A stretch of DNA of 64,000 nt from a virus. Below, piece after piece: positions 1 through 29,700 of this stretch. Each line of letters starts with the position of its first letter. Within the stretch, counting starts at the first letter, position 1. The stretch is from positions 36,078-100,077 of the IMG/VR virus record IMGVR_UViG_3300045988_062714; one strand, given 5' to 3'. The notes beneath the pieces are model-generated. The model did not search any database and was not told where the DNA came from. It saw only the letters and a list, made by a program, of their open reading frames with translations. Position numbers and translations under genes: made by a program.

Positions 1-2
1 AG

Positions 3-15954: not shown

Positions 15955-16740
15955 TCATATAAGCTTCTCTATATAGTCTCTCCCTTCTCCAGTAAAGATT
16001 GGAATCTCATCGTCAATATACCAATAACCTCTGAGAGTTTGGTTCATAGTCTGATGATACTTCTTGATACAACAGCTTCCTCTTCTAAACTTAGTAGGAT
16101 AATCATTCCAATTAATTCCCTTCTCTTGGAAAAGTAGTTCTTGAATCTGATTAGTATTTAATCCTTCTAACTGCTTATGAGAAAAGTAAGCTTGCCCAAC
16201 AGATTGAATACTATTTCGTGTAGCGTCTTGCTGTCTCCATAATATACAATTAGTTACCTCTTCCTTGGGGATATTAAAGCATCTTGCATCAAATACCGCA
16301 CCTGATTTAATAGCACGTATGTAGGATTTAGCCAGATTTTCGTCTCCTAATTCACCTTTCCAAGAAAGTTCGTTAACTTGCACTTGGAATTGTCTATTAA
16401 AGATAAAGGTGGCCATAGATGCAGCTACACTACAGATTTTTTGTACTTCGTAATCAAACCAAGCATCTGTAGTAAGTTTTTGGTAGTCTATCAGAACTAG
16501 CGTAATTTCATCAGATTGTGTATATCCCAAGACACATCCCTGAATGTTTTCACACAGATATTTCATAGTTTCCTGCATGGCTTTGGACATACACTCATCA
16601 AAGGGCTTAACAAAACCCTTTGTGAATGTGTGAAATGCTTTTCCATCTAATCGGATGATTACAGGAGTTCTTCTCATAAGTGATGTCTTAGAACGCGCTT
16701 CATAATAAAGCTTCATTCTATCTCCAAATTCGTCTTTCAT
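15955..16740 (-). CDS. Thg1-like protein (tRNA-His guanylyltransferase family 3'-5' nucleotidyltransferase), a likely tRNA 5'-end repair enzyme.
   Basis: RLDGKAFHTF...KPFDE...LGYTQSDEITLVL matches the Thg1/TLP catalytic motifs (RxDGRxFHxF, FExPxD, YxQSDE). Confidence 0.6.
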   Translation of the reverse strand: MKDEFGDRMKLYYEARSKTSLMRRTPVIIRLDGKAFHTFTKGFVKPFDECMSKAMQETMKYLCENIQGCVLGYTQSDEITLVLIDYQKLTTDAWFDYEVQKICSVAASMATFIFNRQFQVQVNELSWKGELGDENLAKSYIRAIKSGAVFDARCFNIPKEEVTNCILWRQQDATRNSIQSVGQAYFSHKQLEGLNTNQIQELLFQEKGINWNDYPTKFRRGSCCIKKYHQTMNQTLRGYWYIDDEIPIFTGEGRDYIEKLI

Positions 16741-17255
16741 TTCTCCTTTCTTATATTAATGTTTCCGTAGTATAAACTACCACTAACTATATACTTGAAG
16801 TCTTTTCCTTCCTTTATGAAAGTTACCCAATAGTCTATATCCCAGCCATTAGTTTCTATGTTAGTATCAGTCCATCCTAACTCCTCTAACACTTCTTTAA
16901 CCAATGCAAACGAGATACAGCCTGCACTAAACTCTTCTGGTTCAGATTCCATAATGTGAAACAGTTGGTCTGAGATATTCCTAAGGTCTTGGGTGATTAT
17001 TTCACCTCTATTAACTAGTTTTGCATTGTCCCAGACAACCTCGTCTTCGTGGTAAATTTCTCTGGTAGCAGACCCATTGTTCTCTTCTGGAGCTAAGTCG
17101 TCAGTACTTTCATAAAGTTGTTCACTATCGTAGCAATCTACCTCTCCGTCCTTTACTTTTTCTATAGCTTCCTCTAATGTTTCGGCTTCTACTTCATAGT
17201 AATACCTATTCCATGTACGAGATAGTACATCCTCGTAGAGATTAAAACTGTTCAT
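16737..17255 (-). CDS. Hypothetical protein.
   Basis: 172-aa ORF. Confidence 0.4.
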   Translation of the reverse strand: MNSFNLYEDVLSRTWNRYYYEVEAETLEEAIEKVKDGEVDCYDSEQLYESTDDLAPEENNGSATREIYHEDEVVWDNAKLVNRGEIITQDLRNISDQLFHIMESEPEEFSAGCISFALVKEVLEELGWTDTNIETNGWDIDYWVTFIKEGKDFKYIVSGSLYYGNINIRKEK

Positions 17256-17794
17256 AACTTATCAATTAAGATTTCTTCGTCTAAATCTTTTCCACTATAG
17301 TCTACAATTTTGAGTATCCAATTCCCTTTAAATCGAGCTTTGCATACTTCCTTAGCTAGAGCTATTACATCTTCTGGAGAATGGAAGGCATTAGTATTGT
17401 CACCAATTTCATATCCACACCACCGTGAATTATCCTCTTCAATTTCTTCACGAGTAACCGGCCGCACTAGTTCGATATGATACATTCCTCCAGCTAGAGG
17501 ATTTTTTTCTTCAGCATCATAGGTTTCTGAACACATAGTCATTGTGTTTGGACTATCTTCCTGACTAAAGCTTATACCTTCTATGTCTAAATTGCCATAG
17601 TAATGAACTGCATTCCAACTAGTTCCTATATAGGTAGTTACGTTTAAAGTAATTCTTCTAGGACGATTATGTTCTCTCCATGGGCCTCTAGTGATAAATC
17701 TAGGAATAGATATATCCAATCCAGCATCATCAGAGATTATCTCTGGATAATCCCTTCTGTCCCAACAATGTTCTACTGCTTTATTTAAATCCAT
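17252..17794 (-). CDS. Hypothetical protein.
   Basis: 180-aa ORF. Confidence 0.4.
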   Translation of the reverse strand: MDLNKAVEHCWDRRDYPEIISDDAGLDISIPRFITRGPWREHNRPRRITLNVTTYIGTSWNAVHYYGNLDIEGISFSQEDSPNTMTMCSETYDAEEKNPLAGGMYHIELVRPVTREEIEEDNSRWCGYEIGDNTNAFHSPEDVIALAKEVCKARFKGNWILKIVDYSGKDLDEEILIDKL

Positions 17795-18730
17795 TTAAAA
17801 CTTTCCGTCATTAGGTTGTAAACAAGTAATGCCTAAGTCTCTCCACATTCTTACACATTTTGTACTATCTTCGAGTACGATAGGGACATAATACTTGTCC
17901 TTTACATATTGCTCGTATAACTTTTTCTTACAGTCTGGTCCTGCTGAATAATCTCCTTTAGGTCGCATAAGAACCATGTCTGGACATAGTAGGTGCGCAT
18001 CAAGCCATTTCTCAGTAGCTACGCGAGATTCCGGAGTATCTTCTCTACCAGTAAGAATGATTAACTCTGCATTGTGGAAATTACAATAAGCTCTTACTAA
18101 GCCAACTATTTCATTAATTGGTTCATCTTTTTCCATACCCTCGGCAGCACCTTCTCCATAGAAGGGACGACCACTAGTATTTAAGCACAACGTAGCATCC
18201 ATATCACATATAATAGCTACTGGCAAATCGGGATTCTGTTGACTTGCCTTAGCCTTCATTGCCATAATATCCTCGTGAATGATAAAGTTTCTATAGCGTC
18301 TCCATGTGTCTTTAATAACCTTTGCTCCTATAGGATTTAGTCGAGATGCGTCTCGACGAATACATTCTTCAACAGGAGTCCAGAAATCTTTAAACTCTAC
18401 TTCATACTTCCATCCATACTCACCTCGTACTCCTCTATTAAATAGATCAACCTCAGATTCTATTTCGGCAACAGTCTTGGGATTTAGGTTCATATTGTCT
18501 ATTACAATATCATACTTACGGGCCATAGAATCAAGCAAGAATCTATCATAAAGACATTTAACTAATTTCTCTCTGCTAGGAATCCAATAATCTCCTAGCA
18601 TATTACGAATATCGTCATTATTAAATCTCACTCTATGTTCTGGGTCTTCGTGACACCATTGTTTAGCCCATGTACTCTTTCCAGAGCCTTGTATTCCTCT
18701 ACATATAATTATTTTTCTTGTTTCCATCAA
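17795..18730 (-). CDS. pnk: Polynucleotide 5'-kinase/3'-phosphatase (T4 Pnk-like).
   Basis: N-terminal P-loop CRGIQGSGKSTWAK. C-terminal HAD motif IICDMDATL (DxDxT). Confidence 0.65.
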   Translation of the reverse strand: MMETRKIIICRGIQGSGKSTWAKQWCHEDPEHRVRFNNDDIRNMLGDYWIPSREKLVKCLYDRFLLDSMARKYDIVIDNMNLNPKTVAEIESEVDLFNRGVRGEYGWKYEVEFKDFWTPVEECIRRDASRLNPIGAKVIKDTWRRYRNFIIHEDIMAMKAKASQQNPDLPVAIICDMDATLCLNTSGRPFYGEGAAEGMEKDEPINEIVGLVRAYCNFHNAELIILTGREDTPESRVATEKWLDAHLLCPDMVLMRPKGDYSAGPDCKKKLYEQYVKDKYYVPIVLEDSTKCVRMWRDLGITCLQPNDGKF

Positions 18731-18996
18731 TATAACATATTTAAAATACCCAACCGTATTTAGTTTCTAAACTATAAAACTTATTCTTATACATAAAGCC
18801 GGATTTACCTTTCTTTATAATTCTTCTACAGAGAAAAGGCATTCCGACTTTACAAGTATTGTTGTTTCTCCAAGCACATAGTAAGTTCTTACCCATGAAG
18901 TCCATAATAACAAAGCTAGAATCCTTACTATTTGGAACCTCTGTACAGTATTTTATCGGAACTCTCCAATAAGACTCATGTACACTTCTATACTTT

Positions 18997-19281
18997 TCAA
19001 ACTTGTTCATATTTAGATAGACGTTCTTCTAGTCTAGTCAATTTCCTTTCTCTTTCCAGAGCAACTTTTTCTTTTCCAAAATAATTAGAAAGCTGTTCGC
19101 ACATAATCATAACATCAGCAATTTCAGTTATAATATCATCCTCTCCAACTCTACCTCTTCTAAACTTACATATAGCATTAGTTAACTCGCTACATTCTTC
19201 TACTACCATAGCGGCTTGAGCAGGAAACCCATAGATTTCCATAGCTCTTCTACATAAATTTTCTGAATCAACCACTAACAA
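18997..19281 (-). CDS. MazG-like nucleotide pyrophosphohydrolase.
   Basis: EECSEL...EIADVMIMCEQL matches the MazG EExxE/ExxD helix pattern. 94 aa. Confidence 0.4.
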   Translation of the reverse strand: MLVVDSENLCRRAMEIYGFPAQAAMVVEECSELTNAICKFRRGRVGEDDIITEIADVMIMCEQLSNYFGKEKVALERERKLTRLEERLSKYEQV

Positions 19282-19477
19282 TTACTTTCATTATATCGTG
19301 ATACAATTTAACTGCCTCTTCCACACTTTCTTTCCTCTCGGCCAACATCTTACAGATATACACTCCTCTACCTGTACTATATCTAATCTGCTTTATCTTT
19401 TCCATATCTCCAGTATATTGTGCTGGAATTGATTCTAAAGCCTCTCTTAGATTACGTTCTGTTATAATATTGTACAT

Positions 19478-20284
19478 TTATTTTTCACTAGTTGGCTTAA
19501 GCCATAAATTAGTGTTCTTAAAAATGTAATCTCTTAAATCAGTGAGTTCAGATAACCACCCTAGAGTTAAAGATGAGTTACACTTAAAGCACTTTGTCAG
19601 TTCTTCCCTTATTCTCTCCTCAGATACTACTGGCATTTTGTCTAAATAGTCATAAGCCTTCATAGCCTGCCACATATCTTCAGATACCCGTAGTCTCTTG
19701 GTAATAGAGAATCTTATGCCTCTGAGAATCCTTAAAGGGTCATCATCAAAGGTTATAATAGGAGGTAATGGAGTCCTAAGAAGTTTCTCCTTAATATCTT
19801 TAAGACCTCCAAAATAATCAATGATTTCTCCAGTATCAGGGTCTTTAGCTAAAGCATTAACAGTAAAATCCCTACGTAATAAATCATCATAGAGATTTCC
19901 TGGCTCAACTATTGGAGTTCTAGTACCTGGAATGTACCCTACCTCCTTACGAGCCATTACAAAATCAGCCACTCCTTGATACTTATAGCCCTCCGGAAAC
20001 CTAGCTCGAATTGTATAGCAGTCTGGAGTTACTAAGAAGATTTCAAACTTTTCTGCTATTAAATGTTCCCATAATAACTGAAACATATCACAGGTAGTCA
20101 AGTTTTCCTTTAAAGCTTCCTCGCATGGAACTGCTACATAATCAATATCCTTATTAGTAAGGCCGAGAAGTTCATCCCGTACCTTACCTCCTACTTCGTA
20201 AAACTTAAACATCTCCATTTTCAAATAATTCTCTAATATCATAGCAGTCAATATAGGGAGTTCCACTTGCAGTTTCTTTTTCAC
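19478..20284 (-). CDS. cca: tRNA nucleotidyltransferase (CCA-adding enzyme) or poly(A) polymerase head-domain protein.
   Basis: GGKVRDELLG followed by a DIDYV (DxD) motif. Confidence 0.6.
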   Translation of the reverse strand: MKKKLQVELPILTAMILENYLKMEMFKFYEVGGKVRDELLGLTNKDIDYVAVPCEEALKENLTTCDMFQLLWEHLIAEKFEIFLVTPDCYTIRARFPEGYKYQGVADFVMARKEVGYIPGTRTPIVEPGNLYDDLLRRDFTVNALAKDPDTGEIIDYFGGLKDIKEKLLRTPLPPIITFDDDPLRILRGIRFSITKRLRVSEDMWQAMKAYDYLDKMPVVSEERIREELTKCFKCNSSLTLGWLSELTDLRDYIFKNTNLWLKPTSEK

Positions 20285-20708
20285 TTGTGAAGAAGTCTAC
20301 AAAGTCCTCCCATGCTCCATCATCCTTTAGAATAAAATCAGCAAGAGGGTATATTGCCATCTCTTCTAACTGCCAGGAGAGATGATACTCTTCAGCAGGA
20401 ACCCATTGGGTAAGATACTCCCCACAGTGGTCAACTACATACTGAATACAATGGTCTAGCCAGTCATTGCCTGCAACCTTACAATGATAATCGTAAAGTA
20501 TTGGATACTTCTCTGCTAAGAATAGTAAGAAGTTTTTATCGGCTTCTCGCGAGAAGTTACAATAGTCAGTAAAAGACTCTCCAGCTTCTCCTTCCCATAT
20601 GCTAATAAGACGTGCTACATCTTTAGCCTTCAAATCCTCTCTATTGTAAAACCTTGTCTTCTCCATAGATTTCTCCGCTATATTCATTCCATTCTTCGTC
20701 ATCTTCAC
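20205..20708 (-). CDS. Hypothetical protein.
   Basis: 167-aa ORF. Confidence 0.35.
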   Translation of the reverse strand: MKMTKNGMNIAEKSMEKTRFYNREDLKAKDVARLISIWEGEAGESFTDYCNFSREADKNFLLFLAEKYPILYDYHCKVAGNDWLDHCIQYVVDHCGEYLTQWVPAEEYHLSWQLEEMAIYPLADFILKDDGAWEDFVDFFTSEKETASGTPYIDCYDIRELFENGDV

Positions 20709-21156
20709 ATTCTTCTATGGAAAAACTATAGTAGGTACTCTCGTCTACTCTACTCCATAATTCATCCCAGTCACTTTCTTCCATTTCATCTGGGTCATAG
20801 CCTTCTTCCTCAGCTATATCGTTCTCACAGCTGTAGCTTTGAAAGTTATCATAAGCTAGTTGTTCGGCTAAATCCCATAACTCCATCTCTGATTCAGCGA
20901 CTGCTCTAAATGTATCATCCATTCCACACCAATATGTAGAAACATGAATTAAAAACCTTTTCATAATTTCTTAACAGTTATTTGGTCGTAAGTTATACCT
21001 TCTATAACTCCATCTAGATAATTATATACCACGTCCATCAGAGTATCTTCTGGTACATCTTCTAAACTAGTATATTCTTCAGATCTACCATCGTTAGCGT
21101 CTATCAATAACGAGCTATCGGAGATATCAAATGTAAATTCTAATTTAAATTTCATG

Positions 21157-21558
21157 TTAACCTACGTTACAACAAATTTGACTGAAGTCAGAAAAGCCTA
21201 AAGATGTCCACGATATGATATACCGTAGAAACTCACAATAATTTTTACTAGTAGTAAGCTCCTCTAGATACTCCTTTAAGAGTATAATCTCCTCAATATA
21301 ATCTGGATTATTGGCAGCATATTTTTCATATAGAGTTAATCTCTCAGCAGAAGATTTTATATCCTCTTCAATACTATGAATAACTCCATCTAAGTCTGAA
21401 GTATTCAAGTTGGTATATACCTCACTTTCTCCAGCCCATGCCACATTAACTTCATCGCAAATTGCACTATATATACAGTGGGACCGACTAAAGCTAACAA
21501 TATCTATAGGCTTACCTTCATTTTTAGGAACACCATATATAGTTAAGTAACTACTCAT
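21157..21558 (-). CDS. Hypothetical protein.
   Basis: 133-aa ORF. Confidence 0.4.
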   Translation of the reverse strand: MSSYLTIYGVPKNEGKPIDIVSFSRSHCIYSAICDEVNVAWAGESEVYTNLNTSDLDGVIHSIEEDIKSSAERLTLYEKYAANNPDYIEEIILLKEYLEELTTSKNYCEFLRYIISWTSLGFSDFSQICCNVG

Positions 21559-21946
21559 ATTTATTCAATTTATTAATTAACATTTTATTATTTTTAATCA
21601 ACTCGCTATTACGAGCGCGAAGTTTTCTATTTTCTCCTTTTAAAGTCTGATTTTGAATGATTAATTCAACATTCTTAACATCATAAAAATCCGTTAATTC
21701 TTTAATGCCTTTCCGAGCTAAAGATGCTTTAAGTCTCCTATTTTCATCTTTCATAGCTATATAGCTCTTAGAATATTTATTTATTCCTCTAAGCTCTTCA
21801 ATTTCATCCTTTAATTTTCCAAGCTCCACTAGAGCATTACTATAGTATTTCTTACGCTCAATATCATACTCTTGAAACTCTTTTATAGCTAATTTTAACT
21901 TAGCAATTATAATATCTTTGGAATCCATCAAATTCTCATTCAGCAT
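21551..21946 (-). CDS. Coiled-coil protein.
   Basis: 131-aa K/E-rich heptad-like sequence. Confidence 0.4.
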   Translation of the reverse strand: MLNENLMDSKDIIIAKLKLAIKEFQEYDIERKKYYSNALVELGKLKDEIEELRGINKYSKSYIAMKDENRRLKASLARKGIKELTDFYDVKNVELIIQNQTLKGENRKLRARNSELIKNNKMLINKLNKYE

Positions 21947-22196
21947 ACTATGTCTAATTAAAACAATACTTACAACTCGCTTACTAATTTAATTACTAAT
22001 TCTTTAAGGTGTTGTAACAATTCTTTCTTAGATTTCTCAGTAATACAAAGACCCATTACGTCAGCTCTGTCTTCTAAGCAATCAATAAAAGAATCTATCT
22101 TAAACTTCCCTTCGTCAAATCGGATGGATTCTCCAAATGCGCTTAGAATCTCTTCATCTGTAATTAATTCTGTTGTTGTAAATTCTACATTCATAA

Positions 22197-22475
22197 TTAC
22201 TTGACGTTTGGTTCAACAAAAGATACTGGCTCATATAATTCCCAGCCAGTTAACCATACTGGAACAATTACGGTTTCTATAGCAACAATATCCCAAACAA
22301 TGTTCTCAAAACATGCTTCATATGTTACTCCTTCAATCTTATTAGATTGGTAGTTAGCCCAACCATAAGGTTCAGCTACAAACTTAGTTCCATCAGCTCT
22401 CTCAAAAGTCTTGCTGTCTGCACAAGAACTTAAAGCAATAATTGCTATTAACAATAAACCAAATAATTTTTTCAT
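22197..22475 (-). CDS. Small lipoprotein.
   Basis: Signal peptide plus lipobox MKKLFGLLLIAIIALSSC. Confidence 0.45.
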   Translation of the reverse strand: MKKLFGLLLIAIIALSSCADSKTFERADGTKFVAEPYGWANYQSNKIEGVTYEACFENIVWDIVAIETVIVPVWLTGWELYEPVSFVEPNVK

Positions 22476-22499
22476 ACACTACTATATTTAATTAAAAAT

Positions 22500-22600: not shown

Positions 22601-24790
22601 TTAATGAATCCAATGATCTGATACAGTAACATCTGCACCTAAAAATACATTAGGACAGAATGGTTTCCCTCCATCTATCATACATTTAACTAATACCTTA
22701 GATACTTCATCGGCAATAGATTCTGGGCATTCTAGATTAAACTCGTCATGGACTGGAACACACATCTTAACAATGTTAAGAAGCTTATGCTCCTTAATCC
22801 AATTAAATAGTTTAATAGAGGAAAGTTTAAAACACATTGCTCCCCTGTTCTGAATACGATAATTGATAGACTGCTTTTCAGATGCTGCTTTTCTCTGAAA
22901 ATATCTCTTAACGTCTTGGACGGTATCACAGCCAGGAGAATCTCTCTTCATTTCTCTGTAATAATCCCAGAACTCTGGGTCATTGAACTTCTTAGAAATC
23001 CGCCAGAGGTCATCAATATCATATATATGTGCTCTATGCTTAGTTATAGGATTTAACAAAATATAACCATCCCTCATTACCGCCATTCTACAATAATCTT
23101 GATACTGTTTTACTCCGGGGAAACCCTTCATAAAGTTATCATAGATTTCTTGAGCTTCTGACAACGGTAGACCCTTGTTATTAGCTATAGTATTTGCATC
23201 GCCTCCATAATTGATGGCAAATTCAATACCTTTAGCATCCTGTCTTTGGGCATGATATAATTTAGCTATATCCCCTATAGGGCAGTCTCTAGGGATAATA
23301 TTCGGATAAGACATTTTAGCTACTAGACTATGAACATCCCCACAGCCATGTTCAAATAGTTCAATCATAGCCTCGTCCTTAGATACAGAAGCAATGATTC
23401 TACTTTCTTGAGACTGATAATCCGCAGAAATCCACTTATTACCTTTCTCTGCAGTAAAACATGCTCTAGTTTCCTTGTCATGAGGTAAATTCTGTAGATT
23501 AAGTTTATATACTCCTCCTCCAGAACTTACTCTAGCTGTATCAGCTCCTAGTGAGTGAAAATCTACATGGATTCTTCCAGTCTTAGGGTTAATTGCCTTC
23601 AACCAGTTTTCCCCATAAGTAGAAACCACTTTTGCAGCTTCCTGATATTTTAGATAGATAGGAATAATCGGGAAATCTTTAGCCTGTGGAGCTAGAAGCT
23701 TAGCTTCAACAGATTTCTTTTCCTTCTTAGTTTGCTTATCAAATGTCTTGACTTTAATTCCTAATAATTCAAATAACTTGGTAACTTGTTGAGAGCTACT
23801 CCAGTTAATTGTGCACTTAGGCTTGGTATCAAAGCCATTAAATAAATCACCTTGATTATCTACCTTAGTAAATTGACTTATTACTCTTTTTCTATAAGCT
23901 TTAACCTTTCCGTCTGGTGTTTCAAGGTCTTCCTGAGGGCATCGGACATATTTCTCTTTTAGCAGTCTAGCTACTTCATCCTCTATTTCCATAAGATTAT
24001 AAAATTCCAGTTCTGGGTATTTAATATCCCATCCATCATGCTCATGTCTCTTTTCAGAATCCCATTGAACTACCCAATCGTTTAGTTCTTGCTCAGCATC
24101 CTTCAGCTTAACAAGGTCTTTAGCCATCTTATTTCTCCATTTTACGACATCTAGATGAACACCGCAATGCTTGAAATAAGCAAGACTCTTGATAAACTCA
24201 CACTCAAGTTTCATAGCAAGATTTAATTCTTGCTTAGCAAGCTCTATTTCTTGTTTTTCTTTAATGTCTTCTAGCCACATTACGTCTCCTGCAGCATAGA
24301 CTACTACATCTTCAGTAAGACCATCATTTATAATCTTACCTCGAACAGATTTATCTAAGTCATAGTTTAGATAATTCCATGCAGCTGCTTTCAAACTCAT
24401 TTCTCTTATATTAGCTGGATAGCCTAACCAAAGTAATTTCTCGGCAATCATACCATCCCAGATATAATTTGGCCAAATATCCTGCACATATAAAAACCCT
24501 AAGTCAAACATTAAATTCCATCCAAGAAATACTCTATCAGACTCAAAATAATTCTTTATCTCAGCTTTCTCTTCTGCTGACATAGTTGTCCAGTCAAAGA
24601 CAACTTGATTTTCTTTGCAACCTAGTTGCACAGTTAGTAACTCCTTAGTATGCGCATCTAATCCCTTAGTTTCAGTATCAAATTGAACTAAAGAAAGAGG
24701 CAACAATATTTTCATTGCCTCCTCGAAACTTACTTCTTTGTATTTTGTAGACACAAATAAAGTTTTATTCCGACTTACTAAATAAATCAT
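22601..24790 (-). CDS. polA: Family A DNA polymerase with an N-terminal 3'-5' exonuclease domain.
   Basis: Exo I FDTETKGLD. Motif A SADYQSQESRII. Motif B RQDAKGIEFAINYGG. Motif C PVHDE. Confidence 0.8.
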   Translation of the reverse strand: MIYLVSRNKTLFVSTKYKEVSFEEAMKILLPLSLVQFDTETKGLDAHTKELLTVQLGCKENQVVFDWTTMSAEEKAEIKNYFESDRVFLGWNLMFDLGFLYVQDIWPNYIWDGMIAEKLLWLGYPANIREMSLKAAAWNYLNYDLDKSVRGKIINDGLTEDVVVYAAGDVMWLEDIKEKQEIELAKQELNLAMKLECEFIKSLAYFKHCGVHLDVVKWRNKMAKDLVKLKDAEQELNDWVVQWDSEKRHEHDGWDIKYPELEFYNLMEIEDEVARLLKEKYVRCPQEDLETPDGKVKAYRKRVISQFTKVDNQGDLFNGFDTKPKCTINWSSSQQVTKLFELLGIKVKTFDKQTKKEKKSVEAKLLAPQAKDFPIIPIYLKYQEAAKVVSTYGENWLKAINPKTGRIHVDFHSLGADTARVSSGGGVYKLNLQNLPHDKETRACFTAEKGNKWISADYQSQESRIIASVSKDEAMIELFEHGCGDVHSLVAKMSYPNIIPRDCPIGDIAKLYHAQRQDAKGIEFAINYGGDANTIANNKGLPLSEAQEIYDNFMKGFPGVKQYQDYCRMAVMRDGYILLNPITKHRAHIYDIDDLWRISKKFNDPEFWDYYREMKRDSPGCDTVQDVKRYFQRKAASEKQSINYRIQNRGAMCFKLSSIKLFNWIKEHKLLNIVKMCVPVHDEFNLECPESIADEVSKVLVKCMIDGGKPFCPNVFLGADVTVSDHWIH

Positions 24791-25322
24791 GTTGATAGAT
24801 TTCGATGTTATTTATTTCAACATCTTTGGATTTGAACCTATTATAAATAGCTTCTTCAACTGCACCTTTAATATCATCTTCATCTATTACTTCTACATCT
24901 ACGAATAACCCTAATTCAACTCCTACTTCTACCTTAACCTTAGTAGGTAGTGGTTCATTGTAAGGTGCTCTAGGGTCATTAGCTGCACCCATTGGATAGT
25001 TATCTAAAGTCGTCATATGGGTCATAAGTTAAAGGATCAACTACTTCCCAATCATCTGCGTTTATATCTTCACCATCAAAAGGATAGTAAGTACAAGTCC
25101 TATCAGAAAAGTCATACATGATAAACTGGTCATGGTATGTAATACCTACACCGTAACTACACATAAGAGCTTTCATATCATCAGGGATAGAACGCATAGC
25201 AGGTATTCCATCTCCAGAAATCATTGCAGGTATCTGCATAAATATTACCAGATTGCTCTGAAATACTTTCCTTCTTACTACTTTTCCCTCTTGTAACTTA
25301 GACAATATTTCTCCGAATTTCA

Positions 25323-26168
25323 TTACATTAAATTTTTAAGTTGATTAGAAAATCTACGTCTTAATTTAGCTAAAGCTCCCTCTTTCATCTGTCTTATTCT
25401 TTCTCCTCCAACACCGTACATATCAGCTATAATTTTAGGATTGACAGGAGCCATTCCTATACCAAATAACATACAGATTAAATCGTGCTCTCTAATTGTT
25501 AATTTAGAAAGTAGATTCTCTAGCTCTTTAGTTACATAGCTTTTATTTACTTGTTCATCAAGGGGGTCTTCACCATCTGGAATAATATCACAGACTTGAC
25601 TGTTTTCTTCATCTCCTCCTATGAAATCGTCCACAGAAACTAACTTATTAGAAAACTGTGCTAGATAGTCAATTTGCTCCCTAGGAATATCAGTCATTTC
25701 TGATATTTCTTCGGAACTTGGATTTCTATCATGCGATTGCAAGAATTTATTAGTTGCATCGAGTATACTTATTACCAATAATTGCTGAGACATTGGAAGA
25801 CGAATTTCTCGTGCTTGCCAATATATAGAATTATAGATACTTTGTCTAATCCACCATACAGCATATGACAAGAATGTCACTCCTCTTTCTGGGTCAAACT
25901 TATCAATAGCTTTCATTAATCCTTCATTTCCACTAGAGATTAAATCCATTAAAGGGATACCTCTATTCTGAAATTGCTTGGCGATAGTCACAACAAACCT
26001 AAGATTTGATTTTATGACTTGTTCTCTAGCAACATCATCTCCTTTTTGAGCCTCACAAATGAGACGAGTTACCTCAGTACTATCTAAAATCTTATATTTA
26101 GATATATCCCTGAGATAACTCGTCAACAGTGAGTCAGAACGGTCTGTGAAAATGATTTTTTTACTCAC
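25323..26168 (-). CDS. Sigma-70 family RNA polymerase sigma factor.
   Basis: Regions 2.1-2.4 (VAREQVIKSNLRFVVTIA..., DLISSGNEGLMKAIDKFDPERG, FLSYAVWWIRQSI) and a region 4 helix-turn-helix. Confidence 0.8.
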   Translation of the reverse strand: MSKKIIFTDRSDSLLTSYLRDISKYKILDSTEVTRLICEAQKGDDVAREQVIKSNLRFVVTIAKQFQNRGIPLMDLISSGNEGLMKAIDKFDPERGVTFLSYAVWWIRQSIYNSIYWQAREIRLPMSQQLLVISILDATNKFLQSHDRNPSSEEISEMTDIPREQIDYLAQFSNKLVSVDDFIGGDEENSQVCDIIPDGEDPLDEQVNKSYVTKELENLLSKLTIREHDLICMLFGIGMAPVNPKIIADMYGVGGERIRQMKEGALAKLRRRFSNQLKNLM

Positions 26169-26403
26169 CTTCTTTTACAACCTGGGCTTCTGAAATTTCA
26201 TCTTTAGGAGCATTAAGACCAATACGAATAGATAGTACTGATATATATGCTTCCATTGCTTTTAGTTGGGCGACTAGTAAGTCTTTATTAAGGTTGTCAA
26301 CCTCCTTGAACTTATCCCCTAGGATAAAATCTCTGAGCTTAACAGCACGTTCATTAACTTCGTTAAATTCTCCCAACATTCTTTGAAATACAGCTTGTTC
26401 CAT
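26161..26403 (-). CDS. Hypothetical protein adjacent to the sigma factor (possible regulator).
   Basis: 80-aa ORF. Its start overlaps the sigma gene stop. Confidence 0.35.
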   Translation of the reverse strand: MEQAVFQRMLGEFNEVNERAVKLRDFILGDKFKEVDNLNKDLLVAQLKAMEAYISVLSIRIGLNAPKDEISEAQVVKEGE

Positions 26404-26541
26404 TTGATTAATTTTTAATATTTACAAATGAATCTAGACCCGTAGGTTTCAAGGAAGTCCTTTTCTTCCTGTATTATCTCATAAATTCCAACTATTACTA
26501 ATGACAATACTAATCCTCCAAATATATAGACCAGAATAGTA

Positions 26542-27237
26542 TTAAATATCCAAATATAAAGGTTCATAATTAATATCGTAAGAGTCATCGAGAATAGATA
26601 CATTGGCGGTCTTTGTCTCGCCTGCATCTAGTAGCCAATGATTTCCTTCGTGGATATGTCCACAAAAAGCATACTTCGGTTTCTTATCTATAATAGCCTT
26701 AGCCAAGACCTCATTTCCTGCATTTATGGGAGTAGAACTCCACCTACCAGGCGGAATCATACCACAATCATTTAATGCGGGAGCATCATGACTAATCAAT
26801 ATATCGCAATTTCCTGGGATATGTGAATAGATTTCTTCCAGTTTCTCATCAGAATACATGAAAGCCCAATTACCAAATTCATGGCAGGCCGGAGTTCCAT
26901 AAATTCTATATACCTTTCCTTCATCACTTAGATAGTCTAGATGAGAATTATCAAGAAATTCAGCTTTTCCTTCTGTAGGAAATTTAATCACAGAGTTATT
27001 CCAAAGAAAATCCCTATTTTCAAAAACAAAATCATGGTTTCCAGCTGTAAATACTACCTTCTTACACGGCAATGATTTAATCCAATCTGCAAATACAGTC
27101 TTCAACCACTTCTCACACTGTGGCTTGTTTCTCTGCATATAAAGAGGAACAATATCTCCACATATTAAAACAAGTTCACATGGCTCTATATAATCAATTA
27201 GAAATCCATGTAAATCACTTATTGCACATATTTTCAT
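26542..27237 (-). CDS. Calcineurin-like metallophosphoesterase.
   Basis: Motifs DLHG, GDIV, GNHD and GHIH. Confidence 0.6.
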   Translation of the reverse strand: MKICAISDLHGFLIDYIEPCELVLICGDIVPLYMQRNKPQCEKWLKTVFADWIKSLPCKKVVFTAGNHDFVFENRDFLWNNSVIKFPTEGKAEFLDNSHLDYLSDEGKVYRIYGTPACHEFGNWAFMYSDEKLEEIYSHIPGNCDILISHDAPALNDCGMIPPGRWSSTPINAGNEVLAKAIIDKKPKYAFCGHIHEGNHWLLDAGETKTANVSILDDSYDINYEPLYLDI

Positions 27238-27483
27238 ATCTTATGAGCTAATCCGTAAACATTTTTAGTCCATCCATTCATATGCCCTTTGTTATTTCCA
27301 ATAAGGCATCCTTTGTTTGAGTCTATCGCGTATACTTTATGAGTAACGCAAGCGCCTCTAACTTTACAAAATACTACATCTCCAACATTACATTCTTGCC
27401 ACCTTATAGGAGTGACAAGATGCTTTTCATTGCTCTTATACAGAGGGAGCATTGAATTTCCCGGCTCGCTTGTTATAAACGAT

Positions 27484-28083
27484 TCACCAGCCTCCAATCT
27501 CTGTATCTTTCTCAGTATGTTTGGATTCATCAGAATATTTATTTAGTCCTTCCCTAGTCATATTAGGTACTATACTAATATAAACCTTTTCACCATCACG
27601 GTCATACGACCATATATGATTGTCTACTACATAGCTTAGAGATTTATCATATCTAGTATAGTCTAGAATAGCTTCCCAAGTAGCCATGCTGCCAGTAATA
27701 CTATCCTTTTTATGTTTAGTAGCCCAGTTAAATATCCATAATAAATGCCAAGTTCTGAAAAATGTTATACAAATCATCGGGTCCCATTCGTGTCTGGGAC
27801 TGTCCCATTTATCCTTCCATCCTAATGCATGAAATCCTATATCTATCACCGGACTATAGTAGTCTCTTCTTATGGGAAGTCCAAATGTCCAAAAGTTCTT
27901 TCTAAATAGAAAGTGGGCCTTGGGGCGTTTAAAGTATTTTCTGGCTTTCCACCAGTGATACCATGGATTACGATACTCGTTCCAGCCAGGAGAAAGGAAA
28001 GGAATTTTACTATGAAAAAAGTACAACAGCTTGTAACGCAAACTGCCATACTTTTTACTAGTTAAGTACTCTTTAACATTCAT
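27484..28083 (-). CDS. Hypothetical protein.
   Basis: 199-aa ORF. Confidence 0.4.
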   Translation of the reverse strand: MNVKEYLTSKKYGSLRYKLLYFFHSKIPFLSPGWNEYRNPWYHWWKARKYFKRPKAHFLFRKNFWTFGLPIRRDYYSPVIDIGFHALGWKDKWDSPRHEWDPMICITFFRTWHLLWIFNWATKHKKDSITGSMATWEAILDYTRYDKSLSYVVDNHIWSYDRDGEKVYISIVPNMTREGLNKYSDESKHTEKDTEIGGW

Positions 28084-28332
28084 ATCCTTGTTTTACTAGC
28101 TCTTTCTCCATTTCGTCTAAAATATCATCAATGACATAGTCAGTTAGACAATCAGAGTCAGGAAAGCCTAAGTTCCGCAGATGATAATCTATGTTATCTC
28201 CCGCTTCATTAAGTATCATCCAGCCTTCAACTTCTCCCTCTTCATCTTCCTTAAGTGTTTTCACCACTTGGTCGATTAACTTAGGGATATTCACATCGTA
28301 GTTCTTAACTACCTCTACATTATAACTTATTA

Positions 28333-29700
28333 TCATGCTTCGTCTTCAATATTAGTTTCACCTTTGTCAAGTTCCTTTCCTTCCTTATCTAGGAATTTAA
28401 AACATTTAAGCTTAAATGCCTCAGATTTCATATTCTCAATCTTAATAACTATTCCCTCATGAGGTACTTTGTTATCGCAAGATGGCGAAGTTCGCTCCAT
28501 ATAGAATCTAGCGTCGTTAGCTAATTTCTCCATGAAATTTTCGTTCCAGTGCTCAGCTTCGTTAAGTTCTGGATATAAGCTATTGGCAGTACCATAATAC
28601 CACTCTTCTACTGGGATAAGACCTACCTTAGCGCACCATTGTTGAACTTCCCTAGCACTAAATTCGTGAACTACACCGTCAACATTAGTTAATGTTACAC
28701 GATATATTCGCACTTTAAAGTGCTTTTCGTGAGTATACTGTTCTCCTTCTTTAGGAGGCATACAGCCATAGTCATAATTCTTTTGGATATAGCCACCATT
28801 AGGTAAGAAACCAACGATTTCATAATATGCAGTCATACCTTTAGACAAGCAAGGTTTAACTATTTTATCAGCTTCCGCCCAAACGTCACACCCGTAGAAT
28901 CCAGGAGTAACATTCTTATTATAGAACTGATTCTTTATTACCGTTCTAGAAGCATACAAATAGTCATACTTATTGAACTCTTCTCCAGTAAGCCATTTAG
29001 CGATTTTCTGTTTCCAGTTCAGATCTTGTTTACAAAGCACATAAGCTGATATACCAGAAGTTCCGTGAATTTTCTCAGTAATACTGATTAAATCATTTGG
29101 ATGAATTACATTAGGACATTTCTTAATAAGAGTTGTGTCGTAGTGGAATCTAAATTGTTCATCAATGACCTTGCTGATTCCTTTGACCTTCTTCGTTTGG
29201 TTGTTACGTGGTGTGCCACCTTGTCCTTGCTGTCTCTTAGGGATGTACTTCTTGTTAATCCAAAATTCTTTGCCTTCATGTTCTACAATATCAAATTCAG
29301 TTCCTACTTCAATTTCTATCTCTTTATTAGTTACGGACATTATGTAGTTTTGGAACTGTATAATGGGCATAATAAAACCTTCCGACAGTTCATTTTTAAG
29401 TCTAATAGCTTTGACTCTACCATTGTCTTCAAACATACCAGTTTGTTCTGGGTCGTTGTTCAACTCCTTATGTCTATACAAGTTGCAATACCTTAGAAAA
29501 TCAGGATTAATGCAACAAGCAGTTGGGAAATAAACATACAATCCTGGCTGGGAATCAATACCAGTAATAATGTTAAATCCATCGATGGTGCAACACTTAA
29601 GTCTAGTTACTTCTGGGTTACTGTGTTGTCTAAAATTCTTAATTTCTACAATCTTTGCCAAATAATTGACATTGGCTTTCTTACTTTTTGATAACTTCAT
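28333..29700 (-). CDS. rnl: RNA ligase (Rnl2-like covalent nucleotidyltransferase).
   Basis: Motif I KIHGTSG, motif IV HEGIVIK, motif V FKLK. Confidence 0.55.
   Translation of the reverse strand: MKLSKSKKANVNYLAKIVEIKNFRQHSNPEVTRLKCCTIDGFNIITGIDSQPGLYVYFPTACCINPDFLRYCNLYRHKELNNDPEQTGMFEDNGRVKAIRLKNELSEGFIMPIIQFQNYIMSVTNKEIEIEVGTEFDIVEHEGKEFWINKKYIPKRQQGQGGTPRNNQTKKVKGISKVIDEQFRFHYDTTLIKKCPNVIHPNDLISITEKIHGTSGISAYVLCKQDLNWKQKIAKWLTGEEFNKYDYLYASRTVIKNQFYNKNVTPGFYGCDVWAEADKIVKPCLSKGMTAYYEIVGFLPNGGYIQKNYDYGCMPPKEGEQYTHEKHFKVRIYRVTLTNVDGVVHEFSAREVQQWCAKVGLIPVEEWYYGTANSLYPELNEAEHWNENFMEKLANDARFYMERTSPSCDNKVPHEGIVIKIENMKSEAFKLKCFKFLDKEGKELDKGETNIEDEA

What the first reader, a model, noticed from the sequence alone, without database searches (positions are those of the whole stretch)
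15955..29700. Unusually complete phage tRNA-repair toolkit: Thg1-like polymerase, Pnk, CCA-adding enzyme, RNA ligase and MazG
Within 14 kb the phage encodes a Thg1-like 3'-5' nucleotidyltransferase for 5'-end repair (15955-16740). It also encodes a T4-type polynucleotide kinase/phosphatase for end healing (17795-18730), a class II CCA-adding enzyme for 3'-end repair (19478-20284) and an Rnl2-family RNA ligase for sealing (28333-29700). A MazG-like NTP pyrophosphohydrolase sits at 18997-19281. The T4 Pnk+Rnl pair is the classic counter to anticodon nucleases (PrrC, RloC). Adding both 5'- and 3'-terminal rebuilders suggests defence against tRNA-cleaving or tRNA-trimming host immunity (anticodon nucleases, PARIS-like tRNA cleavage, tRNA-nicking toxins). 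It could alternatively maintain a phage-encoded suppressor tRNA needed for the recoded late genes.
Basis: partly seen in the sequence, partly recalled or inferred. Interest (0 to 1): 0.75.

Follow-up and report, generated by a model that had tools for sequence, protein, structure and literature searches.

The report
Phage tRNA end-repair and finishing genes
A large human-gut phage that reads the TAG stop codon as an amino acid carries a tightly packed set of enzymes that can mend or finish both ends of tRNAs, and it sits in a genome with about 25 tRNA genes that almost all lack their CCA tail; the same kind of gene set is already known from other large phages.

Summary
Three details need correcting. 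The Thg1 homologue is a bacterial-type Thg1-like protein (TLP). The CCA enzyme is a short head-plus-neck form of about 245-268 aa. The ligase looks like DraRnl/NgrRnl (Rnl5-like), not T4 Rnl2.

CCA-u69-MazG-u89-Pnkp-u180-u172-TLP is one gap-free, co-directional gene string. It is conserved in about 35 related 185-193 kb gut-phage contigs. In more distant lineages the ligase, Pnkp and TLP (sometimes also the CCA enzyme) lie directly adjacent in other orders, which supports a functional link.

New context: a tRNA island starts about 190 bp beyond the window. It holds about 25 tRNAs, two amber-suppressor tRNAs and a tmRNA. Only 4 of 260 distinct tRNA genes encode CCA. Some tRNAs, and the tmRNA, end in HDV-like theta ribozymes.

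Most likely this is a tRNA-end maintenance module: it finishes phage tRNAs and repairs broken ones. The anti-defence role is plausible but untested. The set is not unique: Lak megaphages carry all four enzymes and jumbo phages carry the same enzyme classes. Verdict: real, a new member of a known kind, moderately interesting.

The parts
15955..16740 (-). Thg1-like protein (TLP), a templated 3'-5' nucleotidyltransferase that rebuilds tRNA 5' ends
   Evidence: PF04446 3e-31 and Thg1C 3e-6. phrog_4717 8e-93. Best solved relative is B. thuringiensis TLP 4KGK, 1e-66, with the RLDG and QSDE carboxylate motifs aligned.
16737..17255 (-). u172, a conserved ORF of unknown function whose ends overlap the TLP and u180 genes
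   Evidence: 4-nt overlaps with both neighbours. Kept next to the TLP gene in the window's clade and in a distant lineage (L033-L041, 58-87% id); 45-47% matches lie about 1 kb away in L043-L048. Only phrog_14479, function unknown. 57 homologues, all from this phage group.
17252..17794 (-). u180, a conserved ORF of unknown function between the Pnkp and u172 genes
   Evidence: No gap to the Pnkp gene and a 4-nt overlap with u172. Conserved in the clade. No Pfam or PHROG hit. AlphaFold model unusable, pLDDT 42.
17795..18730 (-). T4-type polynucleotide 5'-kinase / 3'-phosphatase (Pnkp)
   Evidence: AAA_33 2e-11 plus HAD_PNKP 9e-27. Aligns end to end with Capnocytophaga Pnkp1 4XRP (1e-26) and T4 Pnkp 1LTQ (4e-18). 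The P-loop GSGKST, the NDDIR motif and the DMDAT (DxDxT) motif are aligned.
18741..19010 (-). u89, a small ORF inside the gene string
   Evidence: Overlaps the MazG gene by 14 nt and lies 10 nt from the Pnkp gene. No family hit.
18997..19281 (-). Small MazG-like NTP pyrophosphohydrolase; its role in the module is unclear
   Evidence: phrog_2245 1e-25. Pfam MazG 1e-3, below the cut-off. Travels with the CCA gene in relatives.
19268..19477 (-). u69, a small ORF that starts at the base after the CCA gene's stop codon
   Evidence: Same frame as the CCA gene, separated by one TAA. Found together with the CCA gene in relatives. No Pfam hit.
19478..20284 (-). Short class II tRNA nucleotidyltransferase (CCA-adding type), head and neck domains only
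   Evidence: PolyA_pol 2e-19. phrog_24229 (245-position profile) 2e-66. Solved relatives are the Aquifex A-adding enzyme and the Thermotoga and Planococcus CCA enzymes. Motifs GGKVRD..DID, RRDFTVNA, DDDPLRILR and ERIREELTK are read from the sequence. All NCBIfam equivalog cut-offs are missed because the body and tail domains are absent.
26542..27237 (-). Calcineurin-type metallophosphoesterase near the ligase gene; a possible extra end-healing enzyme, membership uncertain
   Evidence: Metallophos 3e-12. Conserved near the sigma-factor gene in the clade. Any role in RNA repair is inferred only by analogy with the phosphoesterase domain of Clostridium thermocellum Pnkp (abstract seen).
28333..29700 (-). 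ATP-dependent RNA ligase, DraRnl/NgrRnl-like: N-terminal OB-like domain plus C-terminal nucleotidyltransferase
   Evidence: phrog_968 5e-40 over the full length. PF09414 at residues 206-435, 4e-4. TIGR02306 (DRB0094 family) matches residues 26-123, 7e-5. K210-I-H-G, E294, E415-G-x-V-I-K420 and K430/K432 are invariant in 22 homologues. The top 13 Foldseek hits are Naegleria RNA ligase, but the model is poor. The gene lies directly beside the Pnkp, TLP and CCA genes in other lineages.

Best explanation
This is a phage-encoded tRNA-end maintenance module. It is expressed from the TAG-free early/middle gene block and serves a genome that carries its own tRNA island of about 25 tRNAs, two amber suppressors and a tmRNA.

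Proposed steps:
1. The short CCA-type nucleotidyltransferase completes the 3' ends of phage tRNAs, almost none of which encode CCA, and restores trimmed CCA ends.
2. The Pnkp phosphatase removes 2',3'-cyclic or 3'-phosphates. These arise from nuclease cuts and, in genomes where a theta ribozyme abuts a tRNA or the tmRNA, from ribozyme self-cleavage. Its kinase converts 5'-OH ends to 5'-phosphate.
3. The DraRnl-like ligase seals healed breaks.
4. The Thg1-like protein refills 5'-truncated acceptor stems, using the 3' strand as template and a 5'-phosphate end.

Shown here: family identities, catalytic motifs, operon-like packing, conserved linkage, and the nature of the tRNA genes. Inferred: all activities, the substrates, and the source of the damage. 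The module is auxiliary rather than essential, so its benefit probably depends on the host, for example when host tRNA-cleaving defences are active.
For: - Family calls and catalytic motifs.
- From the CCA gene to the TLP gene every junction is an overlap or a gap of 10 nt or less. No minus-strand terminator-like site falls inside the string, and none of the genes contains an in-frame TAG.
- The string is conserved in about 35 contigs. In other lineages the ligase, Pnkp and TLP genes (plus the CCA gene in some) are adjacent in different orders: L033 has ligase@4977, CCA@7042, Pnkp@8553, TLP@10001; L043 has ligase@7044, Pnkp@9082, TLP@10001.
- Pnkp and CCA genes are also neighbours in Arthrobacter phages, genes 183 and 185.
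- The tRNA island starts about 190 bp beyond the window. Only 4 of 260 distinct tRNA genes encode CCA.
- Theta ribozymes lie directly at the 3' end of tRNA-Leu, tRNA-Met and tRNA-Pro genes and abut the 3' end of the tmRNA, including in a contig of the same species. They match the published motif segment by segment.
- Kienbeck et al. report that theta-ribozyme phages are 250-fold enriched for tRNA adenylyltransferase and 140-fold for DRB0094-family ligase.
- Anantharaman et al. 2010 found Thg1-PNK-RNA ligase neighbourhoods in bacteria and proposed that the kinase supplies the 5'-phosphate.
- HDV-type cleavage leaves a 2',3'-cyclic phosphate, and T4 Pnkp removes such ends (established knowledge, not tested here).
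Against: - No activity, substrate or expression data exist.
- Contigs 070909, 058553 and 066369 lack the Pnkp and/or CCA genes near the TLP gene yet keep 20-26 CCA-less tRNA genes. Host enzymes therefore suffice, and the module is not needed for basic tRNA maturation.
- Most contigs with the full enzyme set show no theta ribozyme in the part of the island covered; 13 of the 21 with at least two island loci have none. Ribozyme end-healing cannot be the general reason for Pnkp.
- The TLP has no obvious maturation substrate: G-1 of tRNA-His is encoded, and no 5' acceptor mismatches occur outside tRNA-Met(CAU) apart from one tRNA-Ser.
- The CCA enzyme lacks the body and tail domains that normally hold the tRNA, so its substrate range is uncertain.
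- In this genome the ligase gene lies 8 kb from the rest of the module.
- MazG has no clear role.
Confidence: 0.6

Rival explanations
1. Pure counter-defence. The module exists to reverse host-inflicted tRNA damage, such as anticodon-loop cuts and acceptor-end trimming. It works as T4 Pnkp plus Rnl1 does against PrrC, with the TLP and the CCA enzyme extending repair to both termini. Phage tRNA maturation is left to host enzymes.
For: - T4 precedent (established knowledge; reviewed).
- Presence/absence variation among near-identical genomes, as expected of accessory anti-defence genes.
- Genomes without the Pnkp and CCA genes still carry CCA-less tRNAs, so the genes are not needed for maturation.
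- The TLP has no maturation substrate.
- The same window carries an NAD+ salvage set (Nampt, PRPP synthetase, NMNAT-like), so the phage appears to invest in countering host immunity.
Against: - No host or host nuclease has been identified, and no experiment exists.
- It does not explain why the CCA enzyme and DRB0094-type ligases are so strongly enriched in theta-ribozyme, TAG-recoded, tRNA-rich gut phages and in Lak phages.
- It ignores that nearly every phage tRNA needs CCA added.
Confidence: 0.25
2. Pure maturation. The enzymes form a phage-owned finishing line for its own tRNAs, tmRNA and suppressor tRNA. Ribozyme or nuclease 3' processing is followed by Pnkp dephosphorylation and then CCA addition. 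The TLP corrects RNase P mis-cuts in the tightly packed tRNA arrays. This makes the switch to TAG decoding independent of the host.
For: - tRNA island with two tRNA(CUA) genes and a tmRNA.
- 98% of tRNA genes lack CCA.
- Theta ribozymes directly at tRNA 3' ends and abutting the tmRNA 3' end.
- Enrichment reported by Kienbeck et al..
- The genes are free of TAG and lie in the early block.
- tRNA genes only 4-6 nt apart could favour mis-processing (inference).
Against: - Deletion variants keep the tRNA island.
- Theta ribozymes number only 0-3 per genome, and none was found in most contigs that have the full enzyme set.
- No ribozyme was found next to the suppressor tRNAs of the same-species contig.
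- The ligase has no role in this scheme.
- G-1 is encoded, and no 5' mismatches occur outside tRNA-Met(CAU) apart from one tRNA-Ser.
Confidence: 0.1
3. Coincidental neighbours. These are generic nucleic-acid enzymes of the replication and nucleotide-metabolism block, for example Pnkp and ligase acting on DNA or mRNA ends and the nucleotidyltransferase acting as a poly(A) polymerase. They share no tRNA function.
For: - The genes sit among PolA, DNA ligase, NrdDG, ThyX and dUTPase genes.
- The short nucleotidyltransferase also scores with PcnB poly(A) polymerase models.
- T4 Pnkp and DraRnl-type ligases can act on DNA ends in vitro (established knowledge).
Against: - Linkage of the ligase, Pnkp and TLP genes persists in rearranged orders across lineages.
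- TLPs are only known to act on tRNA-like 5' ends.
- All four enzymes occur together again in Lak phages.
Confidence: 0.05

Closest known systems
Phage T4 tRNA repair (Pnkp plus Rnl1, with Rnl2) against the PrrC anticodon nuclease
   Same: A bifunctional kinase-phosphatase with the same domain order and motifs as T4 Pnkp, plus an ATP-dependent RNA ligase. The healing-then-sealing logic is the same.
   Different: The ligase is not Rnl1 or Rnl2 type; it has a DraRnl/NgrRnl-like architecture. T4 has no TLP and no CCA enzyme. No cognate host nuclease is known here.
Jumbo-phage RNA repair complements (Iyer, Anantharaman, Krishnan, Burroughs, Aravind 2021, PMC7824862)
   Same: The same catalogue of enzymes: ATP-dependent RNA ligases, PNK-HAD, a CCA-adding enzyme, and Thg1 in a few genomes. 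These are read as restoring tRNA ends alongside phage tRNAs.
   Different: This genome is about 190 kb, under the jumbo threshold, and TAG-recoded. Four parts (the CCA, MazG-like, Pnkp and TLP genes) form one gap-free gene string. No RtcB, RlaP or 2H phosphoesterase was found in the window.
Prevotella Lak megaphages (Devoto et al., bioRxiv 10.1101/356790)
   Same: Also TAG-recoded, tRNA-rich gut phages. All four enzymes have homologues in 15 Prevotella-phage records; the Pnkp and ligase hits are named Lak phages (ligase 53-54% and Pnkp about 50% identical). The authors list G-1 addition, CCA addition and an RNA ligase.
   Different: In Lak the genes are scattered over 540 kb; the ligase and Pnkp genes are 270-300 kb apart. 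The genome is three times larger. The Lak paper reports tRNA introns, which were not examined here.
Bacterial Thg1-like protein neighbourhoods with PNK and RNA ligase (Anantharaman, Iyer, Aravind 2010, PMC2904730), and B. thuringiensis TLP
   Same: The TLP is of the bacterial type (4KGK, 1e-66). It is linked to a polynucleotide kinase and an RNA ligase, as in the bacterial operons.
   Different: This is a phage setting. The kinase is fused to a HAD phosphatase. No Macro domain gene is present, and a CCA enzyme is added.
Theta (HDV-like) ribozyme phages (Kienbeck et al. 2024, PMC10879173)
   Same: The same phage world. Relatives of this phage carry theta ribozymes with the published segment pattern. 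The short tRNA adenylyltransferase and the roughly 460-aa 'DRB0094 family' ligase are the two genes that paper found enriched.
   Different: That paper does not mention Pnkp, Thg1 or the cyclic-phosphate end left by the ribozyme, either in the main text or in the truncated supplement text held here. It suggests an aminoacylation-like role for the ligase. Here most genomes with the enzymes show no ribozyme in the island stretches covered.
Bacterial Pnkp1-Rnl-Hen1 repair complex (Capnocytophaga gingivalis, PDB 4XRP/4XRU)
   Same: Pnkp1 is the closest solved relative of the phage Pnkp (1e-26, end to end). It works with a separate ligase.
   Different: No Hen1-like methyltransferase was found in the window. 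The phage ligase has no sequence match to any solved chain, so none to the Rnl deposited with that complex.

Membership tests
Thg1 / Thg1-like protein (3'-5' nucleotidyltransferase) | Thg1 catalytic domain and Thg1 C-terminal domain score above Pfam's cut-offs | tested here: met
   PF04446 108.3 bits (cut-off 29.2); PF14413 28.0 bits (cut-off 26.3).
Thg1 / Thg1-like protein (3'-5' nucleotidyltransferase) | Metal-binding carboxylates of the palm domain are conserved (the RxDG Asp and the SDE Asp-Glu) | tested here: met
   Query IIRLDGKAFH and YTQSDEITL align with VIVRIDGAHFH and YHQSDEISI of 4KGK.
Thg1 / Thg1-like protein (3'-5' nucleotidyltransferase) | Belongs to the bacterial TLP branch (templated 5' repair) rather than the eukaryal tRNA-His-specific Thg1 branch | tested here: met
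   4KGK (B. thuringiensis TLP) 1.4e-66, against human Thg1 3OTB 3.9e-9 and Candida 3WBZ 4e-8. 47-51% identical to Bacillus and Staphylococcus phage TLPs.
Thg1 / Thg1-like protein (3'-5' nucleotidyltransferase) | 3'-5' nucleotide addition to tRNA 5' ends | not testable with these tools
   Needs an enzyme assay.
T4-type polynucleotide kinase-phosphatase (Pnkp) | N-terminal P-loop 5'-kinase followed by a C-terminal HAD (DxDxT) 3'-phosphatase in one chain, colinear with T4 Pnkp | tested here: met
   AAA_33 at residues 8-146 and HAD_PNKP at 170-311 (94.4 bits, cut-off 27.6). Aligns with residues 2-301 of 1LTQ and 12-312 of 4XRP.
T4-type polynucleotide kinase-phosphatase (Pnkp) | Catalytic motifs: GxxGxGKS/T P-loop, kinase Asp/Arg (T4 D35/R38), phosphatase DxDxT | tested here: met
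   GIQGSGKST; NNDDIR aligned with T4 NRDDYR; DMDAT aligned with T4 DVDGT.
Class II CCA-adding enzyme | Pol-beta head domain with motifs A-E (GGxVRD..DxD, RRDxTxNA, motif C, [E/D]DxxR, RxxxExxK) | tested here: met
   PF01743 70.4 bits (cut-off 23). VGGKVRDELLGLTNKDIDYV, RRDFTVNA, DYFGGLKDI, DDDPLRILR and ERIREELTK are read in the translation. In motif D the first acidic residue is Asp, not Glu.
Class II CCA-adding enzyme | Body and tail domains that bind the tRNA elbow (full length about 370-480 aa) | tested here: not met
   The protein ends at residue 268. Matches to solved enzymes stop at about residue 260 of chains that are 390-580 residues long. Every NCBIfam CCA equivalog score is far below its cut-off, for example 100.7 bits against 290. 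The phage family profile phrog_24229 is itself only 245 positions long.
Class II CCA-adding enzyme | Adds C, C, A rather than CC only, A only or poly(A) | not testable with these tools
   The best solved match is an A-adding enzyme, and PcnB models also score. Sequence alone does not settle the specificity.
Rnl2-type RNA ligase (T4 Rnl2) | Nucleotidyltransferase domain with the lysine motif I (KxxG) and motifs III, IV, V | tested here: met
   K210-I-H-G-T-S, Y-Y-E294-I-x-G, H-E415-G-x-V-I-K420 and K430-L-K432 are invariant in 22 homologues. PF09414 at residues 206-435 scores 21.1 bits, below the cut-off of 27.
Rnl2-type RNA ligase (T4 Rnl2) | Rnl2-specific C-terminal domain after motif V | tested here: not met
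   Only 23 residues follow K432. The extra domain of about 190 residues is N-terminal.
Rnl5-type RNA ligase (DraRnl / NgrRnl, 'DRB0094 family') | N-terminal OB-like domain fused to a C-terminal nucleotidyltransferase domain | tested here: inconclusive
   TIGR02306 matches residues 26-123 to profile positions 12-104, but with only 21.8 bits against a cut-off of 151. The top 13 Foldseek hits are Naegleria RNA ligase over 404-455 alignment columns (E about 1e-5), but the model has pLDDT 49 and TM scores of 0.2-0.3. geNomad labels a 462-aa ligase of a comparable phage genome as DRB0094 family.
MazG NTP pyrophosphohydrolase | MazG domain scores above Pfam's cut-off | tested here: inconclusive
   PF03819 19.4 bits against a cut-off of 22. 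phrog_2245 'NTP pyrophosphohydrolase' 1e-25.
Theta (minimal HDV-like) ribozyme, in related contigs and not in the window | P1, P2, P3-L3-P3', P1', GG (P1.1), a short linker, C-containing J4/2 and P2', with the cleavage site at the tRNA 3' end | tested here: met
   My scan requires full P1 and P3 pairing and near-complete P2 pairing. Hits start directly at the 3' end of tRNA-Leu, tRNA-Met and tRNA-Pro genes and abut the tmRNA 3' end. The segment pattern is identical to the paper's Supplementary file 3. Self-cleavage was not tested.

The most novel reading that the evidence does not exclude
The Pnkp and the short CCA enzyme, encoded four genes apart in one gap-free string, are the missing protein half of a phage-owned, RNase-independent tRNA 3'-maturation route.
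1. A theta ribozyme cuts exactly after the discriminator base and leaves a 2',3'-cyclic phosphate.
2. The Pnkp phosphatase opens and removes it.
3. The minimal CCA enzyme then adds CCA.

This would play, in trans, the part that the HD phosphoesterase domain plays in the E. coli CCA enzyme. It would make the supply of finished phage tRNAs and tmRNA, and therefore the timing of the TAG code switch, depend on early phage enzymes. The TLP and the ligase would act as quality control for the same pool.
Probability: 0.2. Interest if true: 0.75.

Novelty: new member of a known kind. Interest (0 to 1): 0.45.

Why it matters
Phage RNA repair has been studied mainly in T4, and its scope in gut phages is unknown. 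This case packs 5'-end rebuilding, end healing and 3'-end rebuilding into one operon-like string, with a sealing ligase 8 kb away. It sits in a phage that depends on its own CCA-less tRNAs and amber suppressors to read its late genes.

It offers compact, clonable candidates for three tests:
- whether Thg1-like proteins repair tRNAs during infection;
- whether a 245-268 aa CCA enzyme without body and tail domains still recognises tRNA;
- who removes the cyclic phosphate left by theta ribozymes, a step the ribozyme paper leaves open.

If the module is a counter-defence, it predicts tRNA-targeting immunity in Prevotella or Bacteroides hosts.

Tried and rejected
- **Read-through extension of the CCA enzyme.** u69 follows in the same frame, but the intervening stop is TAA, not the recoded TAG. 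Rejected.
- **Split CCA enzyme with u69 or u167 supplying the missing tRNA-binding part.** Neither has a Pfam hit. No support.
- **TLP needed to add G-1 to phage tRNA-His.** All five tRNA-His variants have G at -1 and C73. Rejected.
- **TLP needed for mitochondrial-style 5' editing.** Mismatches at acceptor positions 1-3 occur only in tRNA-Met(CAU), which looks initiator-like, and in one tRNA-Ser. Rejected.
- **Strict coupling of the enzymes to theta ribozymes.** 13 of 21 full-set contigs with at least two island loci show none. Rejected as the general explanation.
- **tRNAs or known RNA families in the window.** None found.
- **Ligase classification by sequence against solved structures.** No hit with a single sequence or a profile. 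The AlphaFold model is poor (pLDDT 49), so the Naegleria ligase match is only a lead.
- **Function of u172 and u180.** Homologues occur only in this phage group, with no informative domain. The u180 model has pLDDT 42. Partial 'fusions' of u180 with Thg1, kinase or PolyA_pol fragments in the database look like gene calls across deletion variants (my inference, not checked).
- **Hen1, RtcB, RlaP and 2H phosphoesterase.** Not found among the window's ORFs.
- **Phage classification.** PolA is nearest to crAss-like phages (52%). The 1573-aa TAG-rich late protein gave only a weak exonuclease hit. The family is left open.
- **Neighbourhoods of the more distant TLP loci (L052-L080).** These share no Pnkp or CCA homologue by tblastn. 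I started a profile analysis and did not finish it.

Full report

The five ORFs sit at the coordinates given, all on the minus strand.

| Gene (window coordinates) | Pfam | PHROG |
|---|---|---|
| 15955-16740 | Thg1 PF04446 3e-31, plus Thg1C | phrog_4717 8e-93 |
| 17795-18730 | AAA_33 kinase plus HAD_PNKP phosphatase 9e-27 | phrog_505 5e-58 |
| 19478-20284 | PolyA_pol head 2e-19 | phrog_24229 tRNA nucleotidyltransferase 2e-66 |
| 28333-29700 | RNA_ligase PF09414 4e-4, below cut-off | phrog_968 RNA ligase 5e-40, full length |
| 18997-19281 | MazG 1e-3, below cut-off | phrog_2245 1e-25 |

The plus strand at 1-5589 is open only if TAG is read through; there are 45 in-frame TAGs in 868-5589. The 'recoded late genes' context is therefore also real. 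None of the five genes contains an in-frame TAG.

**2. What each protein is**

- **TLP.** It is a bacterial-type Thg1-like protein. The best solved relative is the B. thuringiensis TLP 4KGK (1e-66), against 4e-9 for human Thg1. The RLDG and SDE carboxylates are aligned.
- **Pnkp.** It is colinear with Capnocytophaga Pnkp1 (4XRP, 1e-26) and T4 Pnkp (1LTQ, 4e-18). The P-loop, the kinase Asp/Arg and the DxDxT motif (DMDAT) are conserved.
- **CCA enzyme.** The nucleotidyltransferase has motifs A-E but stops at 268 aa. It has no body or tail domains, and every NCBIfam CCA equivalog cut-off is missed. The matching PHROG profile is 245 positions long. Annotated homologues in Cellulophaga and Microbacterium phages cover about 240-245 codons. 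This is therefore a phage family of minimal enzymes. Whether it adds CCA, CC or A cannot be read from the sequence.
- **Ligase.** It has an extra N-terminal domain of about 190 aa, a linker, and then a nucleotidyltransferase domain with K210-I-H-G and motifs III, IV and V invariant. It ends 23 residues after motif V, so it lacks the T4 Rnl2 C-terminal domain. The N-terminal part weakly matches the DRB0094 (DraRnl) model. A low-confidence AlphaFold model (pLDDT 49) finds Naegleria RNA ligase as its top 13 Foldseek hits. I call it DraRnl/NgrRnl-like, not proven.

**3. Anatomy and conservation**

From the CCA gene to u207 (20284 to 14864) every gene junction is an overlap or a gap of 10 nt or less. 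No minus-strand terminator-like site falls inside the string. Co-transcription is inferred, not shown.

I ran tblastn with the window's proteins against 80 IMG/VR loci centred on TLP homologues.
- The string CCA-u69-MazG-Pnkp-u180-u172-TLP (with u89 in the closest relatives only) occurs in about 35 contigs of 185-193 kb. Pnkp is 56-99% identical and the CCA enzyme 68-99%.
- 49 of the 80 loci have a Pnkp gene within 10 kb of the TLP gene.
- In more distant lineages the ligase gene joins the cluster and the order changes. L033 has ligase@4977, CCA@7042, Pnkp@8553, TLP@10001. L043 has ligase@7044, Pnkp@9082, TLP@10001.
- Linkage that survives rearrangement is the strongest evidence here that TLP, Pnkp and ligase work together.
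- Near-identical genomes differ by presence or absence. L010 and L015 lack u172 through CCA; L005 and L008 lack MazG and CCA. The module is therefore accessory.

**4. The missing context: a tRNA island**

The window holds no tRNA gene. Walking beyond its right end in closely related contigs showed a tRNA island that starts about 190 bp past position 64000. It is on the same strand, upstream of the early genes.

In contig IMGVR_UViG_3300045988_050967 (TLP 99% identical, so the same species) the island holds:
- 24 tRNAs, including tRNA-His;
- two tRNA(CUA) amber suppressors;
- a tmRNA.

Across the clade, only 4 of 260 distinct tRNA genes encode CCA. The CCA enzyme therefore has an obvious standing substrate.

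A structure-aware motif scan of my own found minimal HDV-like ribozymes. They start directly at the 3' end of tRNA-Leu(UAA), tRNA-Met, tRNA-Pro and tRNA-Leu(UAG) genes, and abut the 3' end of the tmRNA in the same-species contig. Their segment pattern, P1|J|P2|ACC|T|CC|ACGT|GGT|P1'|GG|linker|CTAA|P2', is the same as that of the theta ribozymes listed in Kienbeck et al. 2024, Supplementary file 3.

That paper reports that theta-ribozyme phages are 250-fold enriched for tRNA adenylyltransferase and 140-fold for 'RNA ligase, DRB0094 family'. Its supplement shows a 253-aa adenylyltransferase next to a 462-aa ligase. Its main text never mentions a kinase, a phosphatase or the cyclic phosphate. Polynucleotide kinase and Thg1 are also absent from the truncated supplement text held here.

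HDV-type cleavage leaves a 2',3'-cyclic phosphate on the upstream product, and T4-type Pnkp removes such ends (established knowledge). This suggests a route of ribozyme cut, then Pnkp, then CCA addition.

**5. Limits of the maturation reading**

- Ribozymes number only 0-3 per genome. They are absent from the covered part of the island in 13 of the 21 full-set contigs that have at least two island loci.
- Contigs that lack the Pnkp and/or CCA genes near the TLP gene still carry 20-26 CCA-less tRNA genes, so host enzymes suffice.
- All tRNA-His genes have G-1 encoded opposite C73.
- Acceptor-stem mismatches at positions 1-3 occur only in the initiator-like tRNA-Met(CAU) and in one tRNA-Ser.
- The TLP therefore has no visible maturation job, and the ligase has none either.

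These points favour repair of damaged tRNAs for the TLP-Pnkp-ligase trio. This fits the proposal of Anantharaman et al. 2010 that the kinase supplies the 5'-phosphate that Thg1-type enzymes need.

**6. Best explanation**

This is a dual-use tRNA-end maintenance module (confidence 0.6).
- The CCA enzyme finishes phage tRNAs. Where ribozymes are present, the Pnkp phosphatase does so too.
- Pnkp, ligase and TLP heal, seal and refill broken tRNAs.

Rivals:
- Pure counter-defence: 0.25.
- Pure maturation: 0.1.
- Coincidental neighbours: 0.05.

No activity, substrate, expression pattern or host nuclease has been shown.

**7. Comparison with what is known**

- The enzyme classes and the idea of repairing both tRNA ends are described for jumbo phages (Iyer et al. 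2021).
- tblastn found homologues of the four enzymes in 164 (TLP), 2070 (Pnkp), 466 (CCA) and 379 (ligase) of 50,697 GenBank phage records.
- All four occur in 15 Prevotella-phage records. The Pnkp and ligase hit lists name these as Lak megaphages, which hold the closest GenBank homologues of the ligase (53-54%) and the Pnkp (about 50%) outside two unannotated human-faecal 'Bacteriophage sp.' records.
- The Lak paper already lists G-1 addition, CCA addition and an RNA ligase.
- Pnkp and CCA genes are also neighbours in Arthrobacter phages.

The finding is therefore a new member of a known kind. What is particular here:
- the compact gene string;
- the bacterial-type TLP inside it;
- the minimal CCA enzyme;
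- the association with a TAG-recoded genome whose tRNA genes lack CCA and are in part ribozyme-terminated.

**8. Verdict**

Interest is 0.45.

The most novel reading still open is that Pnkp plus the CCA enzyme are the protein back-end of ribozyme-based tRNA 3' maturation and gate the code switch. I give this a probability of about 0.2. It would be of high interest if true.

Noticed in passing
L139 3612-3783 (contig IMGVR_UViG_3300045988_050967; outside the window): A RAGATH-14 RNA (RF03145, 173 bits, gathering score 149) lies 31 nt upstream of the amber suppressor tRNA(CUA) at L139 3815-3885. It is an uncharacterised structured RNA placed right in front of the tRNA that drives the TAG recoding.
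   Followed up: no
L122 11570-12190 = L084 about 1690-2309, then L084 2334-2960: A phage-encoded tmRNA (RF00023, 57-63 bits) has a theta ribozyme abutting its 3' end. It is followed by a GIY-YIG-like ORF with in-frame TAGs and a duplicated copy of the tmRNA 3' end, which looks like a homing-endonuclease insertion.
   Followed up: partly
tRNA island loci L081-L175: 237 of 255 distinct tRNA genes have C at position 74, directly after the discriminator base, but only 12 have C at position 75 and only 4 of 260 encode CCA. In the ribozyme-linked genes inspected, position 74 is the G that starts the ribozyme (4 of 255 genes have G there). I did not explain this conserved single C.
   Followed up: partly
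L142 2994, L143 2867, L175 5584: In some close relatives the plus-strand suppressor tRNA has anticodon UUA (ochre type) instead of CUA at the same position in the island.
   Followed up: no
window 54657-55466, 55850-57400, 34830-35384: An NAD+ salvage set: PRPP synthetase, nicotinamide phosphoribosyltransferase (phrog_448, 8e-182) and an NMN-adenylyltransferase-like protein. It resembles the phage NAD+ reconstitution pathways that counter NAD+-depleting defence.
   Followed up: no
window 8425-8910: A YqeY/GatB-like protein (PF09424 1e-20; PHROG 'tRNA amidotransferase'). This is another tRNA-linked gene in the same early block.
   Followed up: no
window 9825-10427, 26542-27237, 36788-37453: Three separate calcineurin-type metallophosphoesterases lie in one 64-kb window. 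The middle one is near the RNA ligase gene.
   Followed up: no
window 25323-26168: A sigma-70-type sigma factor (phrog_351, 1e-55) is encoded in the early block between the PolA and ligase genes.
   Followed up: no
L064 18708-19160 and 6854-6922 (a different TLP-encoding phage): A GOLLD RNA (RF02032, 189 bits) lies inside a tRNA array 8 kb from a TLP gene. There is also a twister-P1-like hit below the gathering score.
   Followed up: no
homologues of window 17252-17794 (u180): Database proteins join about half of u180, at 98-99% identity, to fragments with Thg1, AAA_33 kinase or PolyA_pol domains. These are probably gene calls across deletion or recombination variants of the module, which would point to frequent rearrangement at this locus.
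   Followed up: no
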